Shown: positions 59,952-64,000 of the stretch, piece after piece
How positions within the stretch are numbered: position 1 is the first letter of the stretch
Layout: each line of letters opens with the position of its first letter
From: an uncultured Bacilli bacterium
GTDB taxonomy: Bacteria; Bacillota_I; Bacilli_A; RF39; UBA660
Length of the DNA: 64,000 nucleotides
Direction: 5' to 3'
NCBI GenBank assembly: GCA_934090735.1
Contig: CAKOJR010000005.1
Coordinates: forward strand, 4,524-68,523
Position numbers and translations under genes: made by a program
The notes under the pieces: model-generated
Databases searched by the model: none
What the model was told of the DNA's origin: nothing
What the model saw: only the letters and a program-made list of their open reading frames with translations

Positions 59952-59989
59952 TAAAAAACTCGGGTAGCCGTATGCAAGAACTACCCGAG
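59952..59989 (-). terminator. rho-independent terminator of the DGR operon
   Basis: Minus strand CTCGGGTAG-13 nt-CTACCCGAG followed by TTTTTT. The left arm includes the RT stop codon. Confidence 0.7.
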
Positions 59990-61090
59990 AACCCCTTTAA
60001 ATACATTACTTCTAGAAAAGAACCCCTTATAACTAATTAAACTTCTTTCATACATTTCACTATCAAACCTCTTAAGATTACGCAAATACCTTCTTACTCT
60101 CCTATAAGTAAAATTATTTATTCTAATAATTAAACCATTACAATTCTTATAAGTATAACCTAAAAAACTAAATCCTCTATCAAAATCAAGAATTCTACTT
60201 TTATCATTTAACTCTAAATCCAAATTCTCAATCTTAACTTTTACCATGTCGAAAATCTTTTTAAGCCTCTTATAATCAGTATCTAAAAACACCAAATCAT
60301 CCATATATCTTATATAATATTTAACCCGTAAATCTTCTTTAATAAAATGATCAATTCCATTCAAATAATAAATTGCAAGTATCTGGCTTGTCATATTTCC
60401 AATACCAAGCCCCTTACCTTTCTTATACACCGGTAATTTCTTTAACTCATCTATCTTTTTTCTCTTCTCTTCAGATGAAATATTTAACTTCCTAATCGAG
60501 CAAATCTTATTATTTCTAACCTTATTTATTTCTTCATTAACATAACCATCATCGGTACTATCTAAAATAATCTTAATAATTCTTAAAGCATCCTTATCTT
60601 TAATATCTTTCTTAATCATTTCAAATAAAATTTCGTGATTAATATTATAAAAGTACTTTTTAATATCTATCTTCAAAACATAAATTTTTTTATTTTCCAA
60701 ATTTAGTATATTTAAATATTTATAAATCAAATCATCAGCAAGTCCACTACCCATATTCTTCCTTGTCGCAACATTACTATAAATAAGCTTATGCTCAAGT
60801 GCCGGAAGCAAAATATAACTACTAACCGCATGATTAACAATCTTATCACTTATACACTCACTCATTATAAGTCTATACTTAGGCTCACTAATTATAAATA
60901 TATGATAATTTGAAAATTCATAATTTTTCTTACACAAACCTTCTAATATCTTATAAATATATAAACTGTAATACCTATCAAATAACCCAACCGCCCTTTT
61001 ATTTCTACATCTTACCCTAATTTTATAATACTCTTTATATAAATTATCAATACTGCAAATGTCTTTATAAAGATTTCCTTTTCTCTTCAA
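59981..61090 (-). CDS. diversity-generating retroelement reverse transcriptase
   Basis: 369 aa. RT motifs include the DGR-typical LGIGNMTSQ (I/LGxxxSQ) and the YMDD box (IRYMDDLVF). Adjacent TR/VR pair. Confidence 0.9.
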   Translation of the reverse strand: MKRKGNLYKDICSIDNLYKEYYKIRVRCRNKRAVGLFDRYYSLYIYKILEGLCKKNYEFSNYHIFIISEPKYRLIMSECISDKIVNHAVSSYILLPALEHKLIYSNVATRKNMGSGLADDLIYKYLNILNLENKKIYVLKIDIKKYFYNINHEILFEMIKKDIKDKDALRIIKIILDSTDDGYVNEEINKVRNNKICSIRKLNISSEEKRKKIDELKKLPVYKKGKGLGIGNMTSQILAIYYLNGIDHFIKEDLRVKYYIRYMDDLVFLDTDYKRLKKIFDMVKVKIENLDLELNDKSRILDFDRGFSFLGYTYKNCNGLIIRINNFTYRRVRRYLRNLKRFDSEMYERSLISYKGFFSRSNVFKGVLG

Positions 61091-61438
61091 CTATTCCCAT
61101 CCTTTAACCATTAACAGTATTTCAGAAAGCAATCTAATCGCACTACTAAATCTTCTTTTCTCCACAATTCCTAAATCATAAAAATAAGTTAAAAGAAAAT
61201 TTAAAAAACTAATATTACATAAAATATTAACCTGATACTTTTTTCTAACATTACCACTTGTATTATTTGCAAGACTAACATTATCAAACAAACTCTTACA
61301 CTCATTAAAATATAATATTTTTAAATGTTTCTTATTCCTTGGAAAGTTTTCATAAATATATGCATCACTATAAACATAAAGTTTTTTTACACATCCCATT
61401 ATTTTAAAATCATCATTAACACATTCATACTTACTCAT
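61091..61438 (-). CDS. avd: Avd-like accessory variability determinant (four-helix-bundle type)
   Basis: 115 aa, basic and helical. The C-terminal LLSEILLMVKGW resembles Avd ends. Positioned immediately upstream of the RT. Confidence 0.55.
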   Translation of the reverse strand: MSKYECVNDDFKIMGCVKKLYVYSDAYIYENFPRNKKHLKILYFNECKSLFDNVSLANNTSGNVRKKYQVNILCNISFLNFLLTYFYDLGIVEKRRFSSAIRLLSEILLMVKGWE

Positions 61439-61781
61439 TAGAAATTTCTTCCTTTAATTCCTTCAAAAAAACAAAAGCCTCACTAGGTGATAAATCATCT
61501 AAATTTAAACTGCTTATTTTATTAATCAATCCACTAGAGTCAAACTCTTTCACTACTTCTATCTTCTCATTCTGAAATAAAAATAAATACTTTTCTAAAG
61601 ACTTAACCGGAAATCCACATTTAACACTTTCACCGAATCCCGTTAATTTAAAACCATACTTATCACTAAAGTACCTAGCATCATCATCCAAAAAATAATA
61701 AAATACCCCACTTTTAAACAAATAACATTTAGTATCATCCTTATTCTTACACTCATGATATAATCCTAATTGCTTTCCCAT
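61431..61781 (-). CDS. MutS-domain-I-like mini protein (DGR accessory, MSL-type)
   Basis: 116 aa from the ATG at 61781 (GAGGTGG RBS). CYLFKSGVFYYFLDDDARYFSDKYGFKLT...GFPVKSLEKYLFLFQNEKIEV parallels E. coli MutS [29 protein letters not shown]...[21 protein letters not shown]. The C-terminal LNLDDLSPSEAFVFLKELK resembles the MutS C-terminal [19 protein letters not shown]. Confidence 0.6.
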   Translation of the reverse strand: MGKQLGLYHECKNKDDTKCYLFKSGVFYYFLDDDARYFSDKYGFKLTGFGESVKCGFPVKSLEKYLFLFQNEKIEVVKEFDSSGLINKISSLNLDDLSPSEAFVFLKELKEEISNE

Positions 61782-62036
61782 TATCCACCTCTTTATTCTA
61801 AAAAATAAAGCATGGAATTTCTCCCACACTCTAATTACTAAGTACATCACAACTCACTTTCGAAAGTTAAAACTCCTACTAACAAATCATAACTCCTAGT
61901 AAAATTATTTGTAGATTATTTAAAATAACCTAAAGGAACATGCTTGTTTCTCTATCATGTAGTCTCCCTCCATTATCTATAGACATTGCTACGAGTTCAA
62001 CAATATATTTTCCAAATTAATATTTGTATGAGAAAT

Positions 62037-62151
62037 TGGCAGGCCGCAAACCATTGTTGTTGTTCACGTTGTTGTTGTTCAAGTTGCCCGAGTTCACGTT
62101 CCAAACGTTAGCGTTATCGCCATTGAAATTGTTAGGCGACAAAGACCACCA
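62037..62151 (-). repeat. DGR template repeat (TR)
   Basis: 115 bp that aligns without gaps to 62501..62615. On the minus strand it is rich in AAC codons (NNFNGDNANVWNVNSGNLNNNNVNNNN). Confidence 0.9.
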
Positions 62152-62263
62152 AACACAAGGACCCAAGCACAAAAATGCTTACTCACTACTCAGCATAGTT
62201 CCTACTATAATCTATATCAACAATTATAGCCAAATTAAATGTGATTAACCACTAAATCACTGG

Positions 62264-62311
62264 GCGGCAACCGTCATGCTCCAAGCGGAAAATCCGCATG
62301 CCAGTTGCCGC
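62264..62311 (-). other. GC-rich extended hairpin between target gene and TR
   Basis: GCGGCAAC (62264..62271) pairs with GTTGCCGC (62304..62311). Inner pairings are possible (CATGC/GCATG or GCGGA-aaa-TCCGC). Not followed by a T-run. Confidence 0.5.
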
Positions 62312-62432
62312 TTAACCAACATAATTTAGTCTAAATTTTTTATTTCAACCTCGCCCACAATATGTTCCTCGAAAGGTTTCTCGGAACATTCAAAGATCAA
62401 AGATATCGACCTTTCTAAACATTGCCTTGTTT

Positions 62433-64000
62433 CTATTTTACTACATATGGATTATCACTCGTACCATTACCAGTTACGCTGGTCGAAGATACAAGAGAAA
62501 TGGCAGGCCGCAAACCATTGTTGTAGTTCACGTAGTCGTAGCTCAAGTAGCCCGAGCCCACGCCCCAAACGACAGCGTCATCGCCATTGAAGTCGCTAGG
62601 CGACAAAGACCACCACCATGTAGTTCCTGTATTTTCTTGTAAATATGTAGAACGATTATAAGTATAAGCAATAGAACCGGAGAACGCAATCTCATCTGCT
62701 GTTAACAATCCTATTTTATAAGTTAGATTTCCATTTCCATTTGTTGTATCATCAACAGTAAATTTAGATAACTTTCCACCATTATTGTCATTAGGACATT
62801 TTAATGTTGGTTGCTTAGTAGAAGCCAATCTATTATATGCAGCGTAATCCGTTTCATTTGTCCCATAACCGAGTCCACCACTTACTGTACTCTTATCATT
62901 ACACCATATTGTATCTGCTAATTTATCAGCATATGATGCTAAGTTATTTGTGTACCATGTTTCTAAATTAGTAAGTATTGTACTTTTATTTGTATTTGCA
63001 TGTGTACTTGCATAATCAGATGCTCCAGTTGCTCCATACATAAATCCTATATAAGCATTATCATTATAATTATCATTAAATGTGCTCGTATATGAACTTC
63101 CTGAATATCTTGCAAATGCCGCTGTTGTACTATTATTTGATGCAGCACATGGACTAGATGAACTACTCGTATTATCATTATGAAGCACCAATTTAATAGA
63201 ACCATCACCATTAACTCTTACTATTCGCCAACATTTATTAGCAAACTGTACATAATTGTTTTTTACAGCACCTCTAAAATAATAACTTGTTCCATAATCA
63301 TCTTCTGTACTTGCTAAAAGTGCCTCAGTTGTATTTTTGTTTGAAGTGATTTGTTTATATGTATAACTACTCGATGTAGCACTTACTACATAATACACAC
63401 TACTTAAATTAGTTGTTGTTTTCATAGTTCCTGCTGTACTTGAACCATTACTAGAGGCTGATGAACTAACAAAATATTTACCAACTAAACTTGAATATGA
63501 ATTAGCATATGTATCACTTGTTACTGCTGCTCCTGTTAAATTGAATTTTGTACCATTTGCAGTATATCCAGTACCATATGTAAAATAATATGCTTGATAT
63601 GTTGATGATACACTTGTAGTTTGGCTTTCGACATCATCTTTTGTATGTGCACTTACCTCACTGCCAGGCGTTGTAAGTGGTGTTTTTAGTTCATTATTAT
63701 CCCTTATTGATGCAAGCAGTGTGCCACTTCCAGCACTATACCAACCATCCGGTGCAGGTGCTGCTGTAACAAAGGTCGCATTGCATCTCACATTACCATT
63801 TGTTATCTTTGCAGTTAATTCCCACTCTGTACCATTCCAAACTATGCTTTCTTTAGCATTAACTTTTTTACCATTTCTTGTACATTCTACCGTTGCTGTA
63901 TAACCACTTGTCGTTGGAAAACTTGTACTTTCCTCACCATCAATAAGTGCTGCAACAAATAAATCGTCTTTTGGTCTTGTTCTAACAGTACCTACTACAG
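62433..64000 (-). CDS. DGR target protein, partial (5' end outside the window), S/T/N-rich surface-type protein with C-terminal variable region
   Basis: The frame is open from the window edge; the track start at 63791 is only an internal GTG. The C-terminus WWWSLSPSDFNGDDAVVWGVGSGYLSYDYVNYNNGLRPAISL contains the VR. Confidence 0.8.
   Translation of the reverse strand, partial: VVGTVRTRPKDDLFVAALIDGEESTSFPTTSGYTATVECTRNGKKVNAKESIVWNGTEWELTAKITNGNVRCNATFVTAAPAPDGWYSAGSGTLLASIRDNNELKTPLTTPGSEVSAHTKDDVESQTTSVSSTYQAYYFTYGTGYTANGTKFNLTGAAVTSDTYANSYSSLVGKYFVSSSASSNGSSTAGTMKTTTNLSSVYYVVSATSSSYTYKQITSNKNTTEALLASTEDDYGTSYYFRGAVKNNYVQFANKCWRIVRVNGDGSIKLVLHNDNTSSSSSPCAASNNSTTAAFARYSGSSYTSTFNDNYNDNAYIGFMYGATGASDYASTHANTNKSTILTNLETWYTNNLASYADKLADTIWCNDKSTVSGGLGYGTNETDYAAYNRLASTKQPTLKCPNDNNGGKLSKFTVDDTTNGNGNLTYKIGLLTADEIAFSGSIAYTYNRSTYLQENTGTTWWWSLSPSDFNGDDAVVWGVGSGYLSYDYVNYNNGLRPAISLVSSTSVTGNGTSDNPYVVK
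62501..62615 (-). repeat. DGR variable repeat (VR)
   Basis: 16 mismatches to the TR. 15 lie at positions that are A in the TR (minus strand). 12 TR Asn codons read as S, D, D, V, G, G, Y, S, Y, D, Y and Y in the VR. The 3' 24 nt (the IMH-like GC-rich end, minus-strand GGTTTGCGGCCTGCCA) are identical. Confidence 0.9.

What the first reader, a model, noticed from the sequence alone, without database searches (positions are those of the whole stretch)
59981..64000. Complete diversity-generating retroelement with clear adenine-specific TR/VR divergence
**Gene order on the minus strand.** Target gene (C-terminal VR at 62615..62501), TR (62151..62037), MutS-I-like ORF, Avd-like ORF, RT (IGNMTSQ and YMDD motifs), then a terminator.

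**TR/VR comparison.**
- TR and VR align over 115 bp without gaps and differ at 16 positions.
- 15 of the 16 differences lie at TR adenines.
- 12 AAC/AAT (Asn) codons of the TR are recoded in the VR, giving SDFNGDDAVVWGVGSGYLSYDYVNY.
- The 3' 24 nt, ending in a GC-rich IMH-like sequence (minus-strand GGTTTGCGGCCTGCCA), are invariant.
- The one non-adenine difference is TR AAT versus VR GAC (third position T to C, plus strand 62128 versus 62592). It may be a fixed point mutation.

**Two layout differences from the Bordetella phage model.**
- The TR sits upstream of the accessory genes rather than directly before the RT.
- About 22 codons of invariant tail follow the VR.
Basis: partly seen in the sequence, partly recalled or inferred. 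Interest (0 to 1): 0.7.

Follow-up and report, generated by a model that had tools for sequence, protein, structure and literature searches.

The report
Active DGR with MutS-like accessory
This is a complete diversity-generating retroelement in the chromosome of a common, uncultured, low-GC human-gut bacterium; it rewrites 17 codons of a surface-protein gene, and it is a well-documented new example of a known kind of system, not a new kind.

Summary
The TR (62151..62037, minus strand) and the VR (62615..62501) align over 115 bp without gaps and differ at 16 positions. Fifteen of the 16 lie at TR adenines (p≈1e-8), and all 34 TR adenines sit at codon positions 1 or 2.

The interpretation, a diversity-generating retroelement (DGR), is supported and strengthened:
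- The best solved-structure match of the RT is the Bordetella phage DGR RT (92 bits; the next hit scores 42). It carries IGxxxSQ, YMDD and the two residues that promote adenine mutagenesis.
- Avd and a 116-aa MutS-domain-I protein (Msl) lie between the TR and the RT.
- In 120 near-identical target proteins from independent gut assemblies, only the 16 AAY codons and one GAT codon vary. This gives 118 distinct VR peptides, all within the NNY repertoire. TRs are invariant.
- The single non-adenine mismatch is a private C>T mutation in the TR. A sister contig has copied it into its VR.

Msl-containing DGRs were already described (Wu 2018; Macadangdang 2024), so this is a new member of a known kind.

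Extras are Msl's C-terminal MutS-tail-like motif, an RT–Msl fusion in a relative, and a conserved NCCY-tetraloop hairpin after the target gene.

The parts
62433..64000 (-). 3' part (521 codons plus stop) of the target (variable-protein) gene. The gene runs off the window end and is 713-714 aa in near-identical relatives, with an N-terminal hydrophobic anchor.
   Evidence: ORF. Full-length relatives P0001-P0120. Weak, sub-threshold DUF6273 match over the VR region (E=1e-3 to 6e-5 in 4 of 8 lineages).
62501..62615 (-). Variable repeat (VR), encoding residues 462-499 of the window fragment.
   Evidence: Population entropy is about 3 bits at exactly the 16 codons that are AAY in the TR, and 1.9 bits at the GAT codon.
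62502..62516 (-). A-free, GC-rich tract GGTTTGCGGCCTGCC at the 3' end of the VR. It is IMH-like and marks the 3' limit of mutagenesis. An identical copy lies in the TR at 62038..62052.
   Evidence: Residues from G495 onward show no hypervariation, whereas N493 and N494 just upstream do. It is analogous to the (GC)14 of the BPP-1 IMH (PMC3240598).
62362..62389 (-). Hairpin ATGTTCC-GA-GAA[ACCT]TTC-GA-GGAACAT. It starts 43 nt after the target stop codon and 111 nt after the VR end. It is a candidate target-site hairpin or cruciform; alternatively an atypical terminator.
   Evidence: Seven lineages carry a 10-13 bp hairpin at this position. They share the apex AA-NCCY-TT but have unrelated stems. 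Eleven of 13 pairs show changes on both sides. Most lack a U-tract.
62264..62311 (-). Conserved long hairpin GCGGCAACTGG...CGGTTGCCGC in the target-TR intergenic region. Its function is unknown.
   Evidence: Nearly invariant between the window clade and L001/L009. The intergenic region folds with z=-3.7.
62192..62233 (-). Candidate promoter(s) for the TR RNA: TTGGCT-18-TATAGT and TTGATA-17-TATGCT. The GGCTATAAT/C box is conserved in relatives.
   Evidence: Consensus scan. The count is not above the shuffled expectation, so this is weak. Conservation is seen.
62037..62151 (-). Template repeat (TR): 34 A, 16 AAY codons, 47% GC in a 28% GC genome.
   Evidence: Identical in L005. Identical except for 62128 (T here, C elsewhere) in L007, L008, L010 and L014.
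61782..62036 (-). Non-coding spacer between the TR and msl, the presumed 3' part of the DGR RNA (Sp analogue). It contains the invariant block AGAGAAACAAGCAT (61953..61940), whose GAGAAA is complementary to the TTTCTC that follows the TR. It also contains a long hairpin (arms 61898..61875 and 61861..61835).
   Evidence: More conserved than the flanking coding DNA. Conserved blocks and 13 pairs with compensatory changes across 5 sequences. Fold-back priming by analogy with BPP-1 Sp A56 (PMC6182149) is an inference.
61800..61833 (-). Terminator-like hairpin plus T-run just upstream of the msl ribosome-binding site. It may be the 3' end of a discrete TR RNA.
   Evidence: A G>A change in L001/L009 keeps the pair (G-U to A-U).
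61431..61781 (-). msl: a 116-aa MutS-like accessory protein with MutS domain I and a C-terminal helix-loop-helix; pI 5.1. The true start is the ATG at 61781, preceded by GAGGTGG.
   Evidence: Pfam MutS_I 1.3e-7, above the cutoff. Gene callers give 116 aa. Family profile versus PDB MutS 1e-6. AF2 pLDDT 87.5, with MutS domain I as the top Foldseek hits. The C-terminus matches E. coli MutS 825-850 in hhalign (probability 91%, P=9e-7).
61091..61438 (-). avd: a 115-aa basic (pI 9.2) accessory variability determinant. It overlaps msl by 8 nt and abuts the RT start.
   Evidence: NCBIfam DivGenRetAVD 2e-5 and Pfam bAvd 0.03, both below cutoff. It is 31% identical (E=2e-17) to the L004 protein, which passes the bAvd gathering score.
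59981..61090 (-). DGR reverse transcriptase, 369 aa, TTG start. IGNMTSQ is at 60403..60383 and YMDD at 60307..60296.
   Evidence: RVT_1 1.4e-14. The best PDB match is 8ub7_A (328 aa, sequence KRHRNLIDQ...; I take it to be the Bordetella phage bRT) at E=4.5e-25, versus 1e-9 for group II-type and retron-type RTs. R73 and I230 align with bRT R74 and I181.
59953..59989 (-). Intrinsic terminator (CTCGGGTAG...CTACCCGAG plus T6) that overlaps the RT stop codon and ends the cassette.
   Evidence: Sequence. A consensus promoter for the next gene (ybaK-like) follows at 59930..59903.

Best explanation
This is a functional, chromosomal diversity-generating retroelement of the Msl-containing class.

**Proposed mechanism, by homology with the Bordetella phage BPP-1 system.**
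1. An RNA carrying the TR (62151..62037) and about 250 nt of conserved spacer is bound by the RT-Avd complex.
2. The spacer folds back on the TR 3' end and primes cDNA synthesis.
3. The RT copies U, C and G faithfully but inserts any nucleotide opposite the 33 usable adenines.
4. The cDNA replaces the VR (62615..62501) at the 3' end of a gene for a 713-aa protein with an N-terminal hydrophobic anchor (surface display is inferred).
5. The 3' limit of replacement is set by the A-free GC-rich tract GGTTTGCGGCCTGCC. The 5' limit is set by the A-free homology TGGTGGTCTTTGTCGCCT.

Sixteen AAY codons and one GAT codon are randomised, which allows up to about 2.6e19 peptides.

**Role of Msl.** Msl is a MutS domain I that keeps the mismatch-stacking Phe but has lost the Glu of the Phe-X-Glu motif. 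It also has a C-terminal motif resembling the MutS oligomerisation tail. It most likely binds the mismatch-dense cDNA:VR heteroduplex, or host MutS, so that mismatch repair does not revert the event.

**Shown here:** the anatomy, RT kinship, adenine specificity, natural diversification, and TR-to-VR marker transfer.

**Inferred:** the priming site, the role of the hairpin, the role of Msl, and surface display of the target protein.
For: **TR/VR statistics.**, as given in the observation check.

**RT.**
- Closest solved structure is 8ub7_A, the DGR bRT (92 bits; the next hit scores 42).
- It carries the DGR signature [I/V/L]GxxxSQ. R73 and I230 align with bRT R74 and I181, the residues that promote adenine mutagenesis (PMC7826257).
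- Of 80 IMG/VR RT relatives, 65 carry an adenine-biased repeat pair.

**Accessory proteins.** Avd. Msl.

**Population evidence.**
- The 120 target proteins are 92-98% identical, yet entropy is about 3 bits only at the TR-AAY codons and about 0 elsewhere.
- There are 118 distinct VR peptides among 121 sequences. No residue lies outside the 15-amino-acid NNY repertoire.
- The identical Avd sequence occurs on 421 contigs.
- TRs are invariant across strains while VRs differ only at adenine positions.
- The private TR C>T at 62128 has been copied into the VR of L005.

**Relatives.** Seven loci (L001-L004, L095-L097) show the same VR-TR-(Msl)-Avd-RT order with adenine-biased mismatches. The RT-Msl fusion in L004 links Msl physically to the RT.

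**Mismatch repair.** Host MutS lowers DGR retrohoming 5-10-fold in Bacteroides (10.1101/2024.11.15.621889).
Against: - No read-level data exist for this strain. Its VR still carries the ancestral C opposite the mutant TR T, so no homing event covering that 5'-proximal position has been fixed since the TR mutated. Activity in this individual genome is therefore not shown.
- Avd scores below the curated cutoffs on its own.
- The fold of the target domain is untested. The AF2 model failed (pLDDT 32.5) and the DUF6273 match is sub-threshold.
- The conserved hairpin lies 111 nt from the VR and has an NCCY loop. The BPP-1 class lies 4-34 bp away and has a GRNA loop, so the hairpin may be only an mRNA 3' structure.
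- The role of Msl is pure inference. A profile of the Msl C-terminus alone found no MutS in the PDB.
- Whether the host encodes MutS/MutL is unknown.
Confidence: 0.93

Rival explanations
1. The cassette is intact in sequence but silent or recently inactivated in this particular strain. The VR would then be a frozen product of past homing.
For: The TR C>T mutation at 62128 is not reflected in this window's VR. There is no read-level heterogeneity data. A terminator-like hairpin sits between the TR RNA and the msl-avd-RT genes.
Against: All ORFs are intact and translationally coupled. The catalytic motifs are intact. L005, with an identical RT and TR, has transferred the marker. Position 62128 is near the 5' end of the TR, where cDNA integration boundaries vary in BPP-1 (PMC3240598). 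Partial homing events could therefore have occurred without copying it.
Confidence: 0.1
2. The RT belongs to a group II intron, a retron or a defence RT, and the 115-bp repeat is an unrelated duplication that diverged by ordinary mutation.
For: NCBIfam gives sub-threshold hits to group II maturase, Drt3a and retron RT models.
Against: - All of those hits are far below their cutoffs. The DGR bRT is the best PDB match by about 50 bits.
- No intron or retron RNA family was found in the window.
- The mismatch pattern has p=1e-8 and respects codon positions.
- Population variation is confined to TR-adenine codons.
Confidence: 0.01
3. The hypervariability of the target C-terminus across strains arises from diversifying selection plus homologous recombination, without reverse transcription.
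For: Surface proteins of gut bacteria are often under diversifying selection.
Against: - Variation is restricted to exactly the codons that are AAY or GAT in the TR. Interleaved codons are invariant.
- All substitutions stay within the NNY repertoire.
- At the DNA level only TR-adenine positions differ.
- A TR-private non-adenine marker appears in a VR.
Confidence: 0.01
4. The DGR is carried by a prophage and diversifies a phage receptor-binding protein, as in BPP-1.
For: Many DGRs are carried by phages. IMG/VR holds 226 distant RT relatives.
Against: - The viral relatives are only 27-32% identical, and none encodes Msl.
- There is no match in the phage genome collection.
- The flanking genes are housekeeping genes: ABC transporter, ybaK-like, htpG, hsp20 and a P-type ATPase.
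- The cassette GC content equals that of the host (27% versus 28%).
- The target has an N-terminal membrane anchor or signal, not a tail-fibre context.
Confidence: 0.03

Closest known systems
Bordetella phage BPP-1 DGR (mtd-VR / avd / TR / brt)
   Same: - Adenine-specific TR-to-VR transfer.
- The RT is the closest solved homologue, with IGxxxSQ, YMDD and the R74/I181 equivalents.
- An Avd partner.
- An A-free GC-rich tract marks the 3' limit of mutagenesis.
- A non-coding spacer lies 3' of the TR.
   Different: - Chromosomal rather than phage-borne.
- The TR lies before the accessory genes, not between avd and the RT.
- There is an extra Msl gene.
- Twenty-two invariant codons follow the VR.
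- The TR and VR 3' ends differ only by a 1-nt indel, not by several IMH/IMH* substitutions.
- The hairpin lies 111 nt from the VR (BPP-1 class: 4-34) and has an NCCY loop, not GRNA.
- The RT has a 44-aa insertion (residues ~178-221).
Msl-containing DGRs: 'Architecture D' of Wu et al. 2018 (16 DGRs, including the Legionella DGR)
   Same: A small (112-283 aa), non-basic MutS-like protein is encoded together with avd and without HRDC. Some related RTs carry a C-terminal MutS_I extension; L004 here is an example.
   Different: The exact gene order of Architecture D could not be checked because the supplement is not held. This clade is in uncultured gut Bacilli. The MutS C-terminal-tail similarity and the loss of the Glu38 equivalent are not mentioned in that paper.
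Bacteroides Bfr/Bth/Bun DGRs (Macadangdang et al. 2024 preprint)
   Same: These are human-gut, chromosomal DGRs with Avd and Msl. They diversify the C-termini of surface proteins and have 30-45 TR adenines.
   Different: The phylum differs. The targets there are type V pilus tip adhesins. Here the target is a 713-aa protein with an N-terminal anchor and a weak DUF6273-like C-terminus.
Treponema denticola TvpA DGR and other cellular DGRs
   Same: A cellular DGR that diversifies a surface-exposed ligand-binding C-terminal domain.
   Different: That system uses HRDC, not Msl, and has several remote targets. Only one VR was found here in the DNA available.

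Membership tests
Diversity-generating retroelement (DGR) | RT of the DGR clade, with the [I/V/L]GxxxSQ motif in place of QGxxxSP and a YxDD catalytic box | tested here: met
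   IGNMTSQ and YMDD are read in the sequence. The best PDB hit is the DGR bRT 8ub7_A, E=4.5e-25 versus 1e-9 for the next hit. The motif definition comes from PMC7826257. No formal phylogeny was built.
Diversity-generating retroelement (DGR) | A TR/VR near-repeat pair whose differences are almost all at TR adenines | tested here: met
   Fifteen of 16 mismatches are at TR adenines, p=1e-8. The sixteenth is explained as a mutation in the TR.
Diversity-generating retroelement (DGR) | The VR lies in the 3' part of a protein-coding target gene, and TR adenines fall at codon positions 1 and 2 (AAY design) | tested here: met
   All 34 adenines are at codon positions 1 or 2. There are 16 AAY codons. 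The VR ends 22 codons before the stop.
Diversity-generating retroelement (DGR) | Accessory variability determinant (Avd) next to the RT | tested here: met
   Direct scores are below the cutoffs (NCBIfam 24.8 versus 80; Pfam 15.4 versus 40). The protein is 31% identical (E=2e-17) to the L004 protein, which passes the bAvd cutoff. It is 115 aa with pI 9.2, matching the class description in PMC5758913.
Diversity-generating retroelement (DGR) | IMH-type 3' boundary: a GC-rich, adenine-free tract at the end of the VR and TR that limits mutagenesis | tested here: met
   GGTTTGCGGCCTGCC is present in both repeats. Hypervariation stops exactly there across the population. The IMH versus IMH* distinction is only a 1-nt indel just downstream.
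Diversity-generating retroelement (DGR) | GC-rich hairpin or cruciform with a GRNA tetraloop 4-34 bp downstream of the VR (phage DGR class, PMC3240598) | tested here: inconclusive
   No conserved hairpin lies within 34 bp. The 5-bp ACCAG/CTGGT stem is not conserved. A conserved hairpin does exist 111 nt downstream, but it has an NCCY loop.
Diversity-generating retroelement (DGR) | VR diversification actually occurs (variation confined to TR-adenine positions among genomes or reads) | tested here: met
   (population level, across assemblies). Read-level variation within this sample is not testable with these tools.
Diversity-generating retroelement (DGR) | The variable protein displays the VR on a C-type-lectin (or Ig-like) fold | tested here: inconclusive
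   The AF2 model was unusable (pLDDT 32.5). There is no PDB sequence homologue. DUF6273 hits are sub-threshold.
Msl-containing DGR (Architecture D, Wu et al. 2018) | A small MutS-like (MutS domain I) protein encoded in the cassette, together with avd and without HRDC | tested here: met
   Pfam MutS_I is above the cutoff. Profile and fold matches to MutS domain I. avd is present and no HRDC ORF is present.
Canonical MutS mismatch-repair protein | Phe-X-Glu mismatch-recognition motif plus connector, core, clamp and ATPase domains | tested here: not met
   The protein is only 116 aa. The Phe (F27) is invariant, but the Glu position holds Y, I, L, V or F. No ATPase domain is present. Msl is therefore a MutS fragment homologue, not a MutS.
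Group II intron / retron | Associated structured RNA (intron domains; msr/msd), and an RT clustering with those families | tested here: not met
   No Rfam family was found in the window apart from one tRNA. RT hits to those models are far below the cutoffs.

The most novel reading that the evidence does not exclude
**Msl as a 'mini-MutS'.** It would consist of the mismatch-binding domain I joined directly to the C-terminal oligomerisation helix-loop-helix of MutS. The Phe is kept and the Glu of Phe-X-Glu is lost. In this reading it works as a dedicated anti-mismatch-repair factor. It either caps the mismatch-dense cDNA:VR heteroduplex or poisons host MutS oligomers through the shared tail. This would explain why some cellular DGRs need it and why it can be fused to the RT.

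**A distinct target-site marker.** Separately, this Bacilli DGR clade would mark its target with a conserved NCCY-tetraloop hairpin about 100 nt from the VR. That differs from the GRNA cruciform of phage DGRs.
Probability: 0.3. Interest if true: 0.6.

Novelty: new member of a known kind. Interest (0 to 1): 0.35.

Why it matters
- **A clean natural dataset.** DGRs are the most extreme natural protein diversifiers and are now being engineered for directed evolution. This element belongs to a very prevalent uncultured gut bacterium; the exact Avd sequence occurs on 421 contigs. It comes with hundreds of independent VR outcomes, invariant TRs and a naturally occurring TR marker that was transferred to a VR.
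- **A way to study Msl.** It is a compact example of the poorly understood Msl class. Host MutS suppresses retrohoming 5-10-fold in Bacteroides. Knowing what Msl does could therefore improve engineered DGR systems, which currently rely on dominant-negative MutL or mutS deletion.
- **No new principle.** The finding adds none.

Tried and rejected
- **AF2 of the target C-terminal 222 aa** with a 5-sequence alignment gave pLDDT 32.5, which is unusable, so no fold search was run.
- **Profile of eight target C-termini versus the PDB:** no homologue.
- **blastn of the cassette against 50,697 phage genomes:** no match.
- **Rfam on the whole window and, permissively, on 61700..62700:** nothing except one tRNA.
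- **Msl single sequence versus the PDB:** no hit; the family profile was needed. A profile of the Msl C-terminus alone found no MutS in the PDB. The similarity rests on a weak domain hit and a post-hoc hhalign.
- **The ACCAG/CTGGT inverted repeat 19 nt after the VR,** the natural BPP-1-style candidate, is not conserved in L001 or L007-L012. I rejected it.
- **A SipW-type signal peptide on the target** is not supported (E=0.86).
- **L098 and L099** (Msl next to Avd and RT) show no detectable TR/VR within ±5 kb, and their RT genes are split. They may be decayed elements.
- **The supplement of Wu et al.** is not held, so the gene order of Architecture D could not be checked.
- **The promoter scan** is not enriched over shuffles, so promoter calls are tentative.

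Full report
**1. The observation**

- TR 62151..62037 and VR 62615..62501 align over 115 bp without gaps and have 16 mismatches.
- Fifteen mismatches are at TR adenines. The TR has 34 A in 115 nt, so the hypergeometric p is 1e-8.
- In the reading frame of the ORF that contains the VR, all 34 adenines occupy codon positions 1 or 2.
- The TR has 16 AAY codons, and 12 are recoded in this VR.
- A pattern search that allowed any base at TR adenines found no third copy in the 64 kb window.

**2. The genes**

Downstream of the TR on the same strand lie three tightly packed ORFs.

*Msl.* The ORF 61781..61431 encodes 116 aa and hits Pfam MutS_I above the gathering score. Independent gene calls on other contigs give the same 116-aa protein.

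*Avd.* It overlaps the next ORF, 61438..61091 (115 aa, pI 9.2), by 8 nt.
- This ORF hits the NCBIfam Avd model only weakly (2e-5, below the cutoff).
- It is 31% identical (E=2e-17) to the corresponding protein of locus L004, which passes the Pfam bAvd threshold.

*RT.* The Avd stop codon abuts the TTG start of a 369-aa RT (61090..59981; RVT_1 1.4e-14).
- Against all PDB sequences the best RT match is 8ub7_A, a 328-aa 'reverse transcriptase' whose sequence I take to be the Bordetella phage bRT (E=4.5e-25, 92 bits). Group II-type and retron-type RTs follow at about 41 bits.
- The alignment puts window R73 and I230 opposite bRT Arg74 and Ile181. These two residues were shown to promote adenine mutagenesis. 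Ile181 is the first residue of the DGR signature [I/V/L]GxxxSQ (PMC7826257).
- Relative to bRT there is a 44-residue insertion at about residues 178-221.

*End of the cassette.* A hairpin plus T6 (59989..59953) ends the cassette. A perfect TTGACA-16-TATAAT promoter for the next gene follows.

*No structured RNA family.* Rfam finds no intron, retron or other RNA family.

**3. Is it active? Population evidence**

*Protein level.* A search with the target fragment returned 120 proteins of 713-715 aa that are 92-98% identical. Nearly all are singletons from different gut metagenome assemblies.
- Per-column entropy in their alignment is about 0 almost everywhere.
- It is 2.4-3.1 bits at exactly the 16 positions that are AAY in the TR, and 1.9 bits at the one GAT codon.
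- There are 118 distinct VR peptides among 121 sequences.
- All 1,935 residues at the AAY sites belong to the 15 amino acids reachable as NNY. Y, G, D, N and S dominate, and no K, E, Q, M or W occurs.
- By contrast, the exact Avd sequence of this window occurs on 421 contigs.

*DNA level.*
- The TRs of four related contigs (RT 96-99% identical) are identical to the window TR except at one base. Their VRs differ from it, and from each other, at adenine positions.
All other TRs, and all VRs, have C at the position equivalent to 62128, where the window has T.
- Contig L005 has an RT and a TR identical to the window's (T). Its VR carries T.
- So the T is a recent mutation in the TR. It has been copied into the VR in one strain and not yet in the window strain. 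This is a natural version of a marker-transfer experiment.
- L005 and 3 of the 120 proteins also have a one-codon insertion in the VR, inside or next to the two AAY-codon runs. Template slippage is the likely cause.

The true invariant 3' element is the A-free tract GGTTTGCGGCCTGCC.

**4. Relatives and context**

*Genome representatives.* A scan of one genome per species found four loci.
- L001 has an RT 89% identical (an uncultured Bacilli MAG from Hadza gut samples).
- L002 and L003 are about 50% identical, and L004 is 45%.
- All four have VR, then TR, then accessory gene(s), then RT, with adenine-biased mismatches.

*Loci found through Msl homologues.*
- L095, L096 and L097 show the same order, with 27/28, 21/21 and 19/23 mismatches at TR adenines.
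- L098 and L099 have Msl beside Avd and a fragmented RT, but no detectable repeat pair.

*RT-Msl fusion.* In L004 there is no separate msl. Instead, the RT carries a C-terminal extension that matches the Msl profile. Wu et al. noted this kind of fusion for three RTs (PMC5758913). It argues that Msl acts with the RT.

*Viral relatives.* RT relatives in IMG/VR are only 27-32% identical. Sixty-five of 80 have an adenine-biased repeat pair, and none encodes Msl.

*Genomic setting.*
- The window's flanks are housekeeping genes (ABC transporter, ybaK-like, htpG, hsp20, P-type ATPase).
- The phage collection gives no match.
- The cassette GC content (27%) equals that of the window (28%).
- The element is therefore chromosomal and long resident.
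- Homology between the window species (L014) and L001 runs from about codon 293 of the target gene to the last codons of the RT and stops there. The neighbouring genes also differ. The unit that is conserved, or moves, is therefore target 3' two-thirds + TR + msl + avd + RT.

**5. Non-coding anatomy**

*Conservation.* The intergenic DNA on both sides of the TR is more conserved than the coding DNA.

*Between the target stop and the TR.*
- This 281-nt region folds far better than shuffles (z=-3.7).
- It contains a hairpin at 62389..62362. Seven lineages have its counterpart at the same place.
- The stems are 10-13 bp and of unrelated sequence. The apex is shared: AA-[A/C/T]CC[C/T]-TT.
- Counting pairs on an apex-centred alignment gives 11 of 13 pairs with changes on both sides, and a covariation score of 0.71 versus 0.24 for shuffles.
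- The caveat is that I centred the alignment on the hairpin myself.
- Most copies lack a U-tract, so it is not a standard terminator.
- It recalls the BPP-1 target hairpin or cruciform, where stem structure and a specific tetraloop matter (PMC3240598). It differs in loop (NCCY, not GRNA) and in distance from the VR (111 nt here, 80-115 nt in relatives, versus 4-34).
- The small inverted repeat directly after the VR is not conserved, and I discard it.

*Downstream of the TR.*
- The roughly 250-nt spacer has an invariant block, AGAGAAACAAGCAT (61953..61940). Its GAGAAA is complementary to the TTTCTC that immediately follows the TR.
- It also has a long hairpin with some compensatory changes.
- In BPP-1 the spacer folds back on the TR 3' end and primes cDNA from the 2'-OH of Sp A56 (PMC6182149). 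The same arrangement is plausible here, but I have not tested it.
- A terminator-like hairpin at 61833..61806 may end a discrete TR RNA.

**6. Msl**

- The family is sizeable. There are 323 representatives at E≤1e-10 among 1.84 billion cluster representatives, nearly all 110-145 aa.
- Its profile matches MutS domain I in the PDB (1e-6).
- The AF2 model (pLDDT 87.5) superposes on MutS domain I with TM about 0.55 over about 85 residues.
- The invariant G25-x-F27 corresponds to E. coli MutS G34-x-F36, the mismatch-stacking Phe. The Glu38 position is Y, I, L, V or F.
- The last roughly 30 residues form a predicted helix-loop-helix. The motif (LNLDDLSPSEAFVFLKELK) aligns with the extreme C-terminus of E. 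coli MutS ([22 protein letters not shown]).
  - Inside the full-profile search this is a weak hit.
  - A C-terminus-only profile search of the PDB gives no hit.
  - A direct hhalign comparison, chosen post hoc, gives probability 91% and P=9e-7.
- That part of MutS (residues 801-853) mediates tetramerisation (PMC1636413).
- Msl therefore looks like MutS with everything between domain I and the oligomerisation tail removed.
- Deleting host mutS raises DGR retrohoming 5-10-fold in Bacteroides, with an all-or-none pattern (10.1101/2024.11.15.621889). The most economical hypothesis is that Msl protects the heteroduplex from mismatch repair.
- I found no paper that tests Msl function.

**7. Comparison with what is known, and verdict**

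- All sequence-testable defining features of a DGR are met. The exceptions are the target fold, which is untested because AF2 failed, and the canonical VR-proximal GRNA hairpin, which is not found as such.
- The Msl + Avd class is published (PMC5758913, Architecture D, 16 examples). It has been seen again in gut Bacteroides (10.1101/2024.11.15.621889).
- This is therefore a new, very well supported member of a known kind.
- Three details deserve follow-up but are not established: Msl's MutS-tail motif, the RT-Msl fusion, and the NCCY hairpin.
- Interest is moderate to low for novelty. It is higher as a clean natural dataset for DGR mechanics.

Noticed in passing
L005:1685-1802 (VR) versus L005:2152-2266 (TR): This VR is one codon longer than its TR; the extra codon lies in the (AAC)4 run. 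Three of the 120 related target proteins also carry a one-codon insertion in the VR, inside or next to the AAY-codon runs. This suggests occasional RT slippage on the AAC repeat.
   Followed up: partly
L004:1402-2877: The RT of this 45%-identical relative is 491 aa. It has a C-terminal extension (…KKGNFYYTYDED…) that matches the Msl profile (E=1.2e-5), and the locus has no separate msl gene. This is an RT-Msl fusion.
   Followed up: partly
window 60428-60559 (RT residues ~178-221): There is a 44-residue lysine-rich insertion between the fingers and palm motifs relative to the Bordetella bRT. It is conserved in the window clade and shortened in L004.
   Followed up: no
P0274 (2323 aa): A giant protein carries five separate stretches that match the Msl profile. 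Its context is unknown.
   Followed up: no
L098:5001-6962 and L099:5001-7455: Msl homologues lie beside Avd and an RT split into two or more ORFs. No adenine-biased repeat pair is found within ±5 kb, and in L099 msl is on the opposite strand. These may be decaying DGRs, or elements with remote TR/VR.
   Followed up: partly
L014:10877-14567 versus L001:3391-7083: DNA homology between two species (88%) starts inside the target gene at about codon 293 and stops at the end of the RT. The N-terminal third of the target and all flanking genes differ. The cassette behaves as a module joined to different N-terminal parts.
   Followed up: partly
window 12319-25788: A probable mobile or defence island lies on the minus strand. 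It holds a large serine recombinase (12319..13944), a 1583-aa SMEK-domain protein (15330..20081), and a type III restriction helicase with an N6/N4 DNA methylase (20217..24624).
   Followed up: no
window 4793-9178: A 1461-aa protein fuses a YfhO membrane domain to a sulfatase-type (LtaS-like) domain. A LytR-CpsA-Psr protein (9261..11192) is next to it. This is a cell-envelope glycopolymer locus.
   Followed up: no
window 51044-57386: Six consecutive ORFs (124-592 aa) between hsp20 and htpG have no Pfam match at E≤1e-5.
   Followed up: no
window 62264-62311: A 48-nt, GC-rich nested hairpin (GCGGCAACTGG…CGGTTGCCGC) lies in an otherwise AT-rich spacer. It is nearly invariant between species whose RTs are 89% identical. 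There is no Rfam match and its role is unknown.
   Followed up: partly
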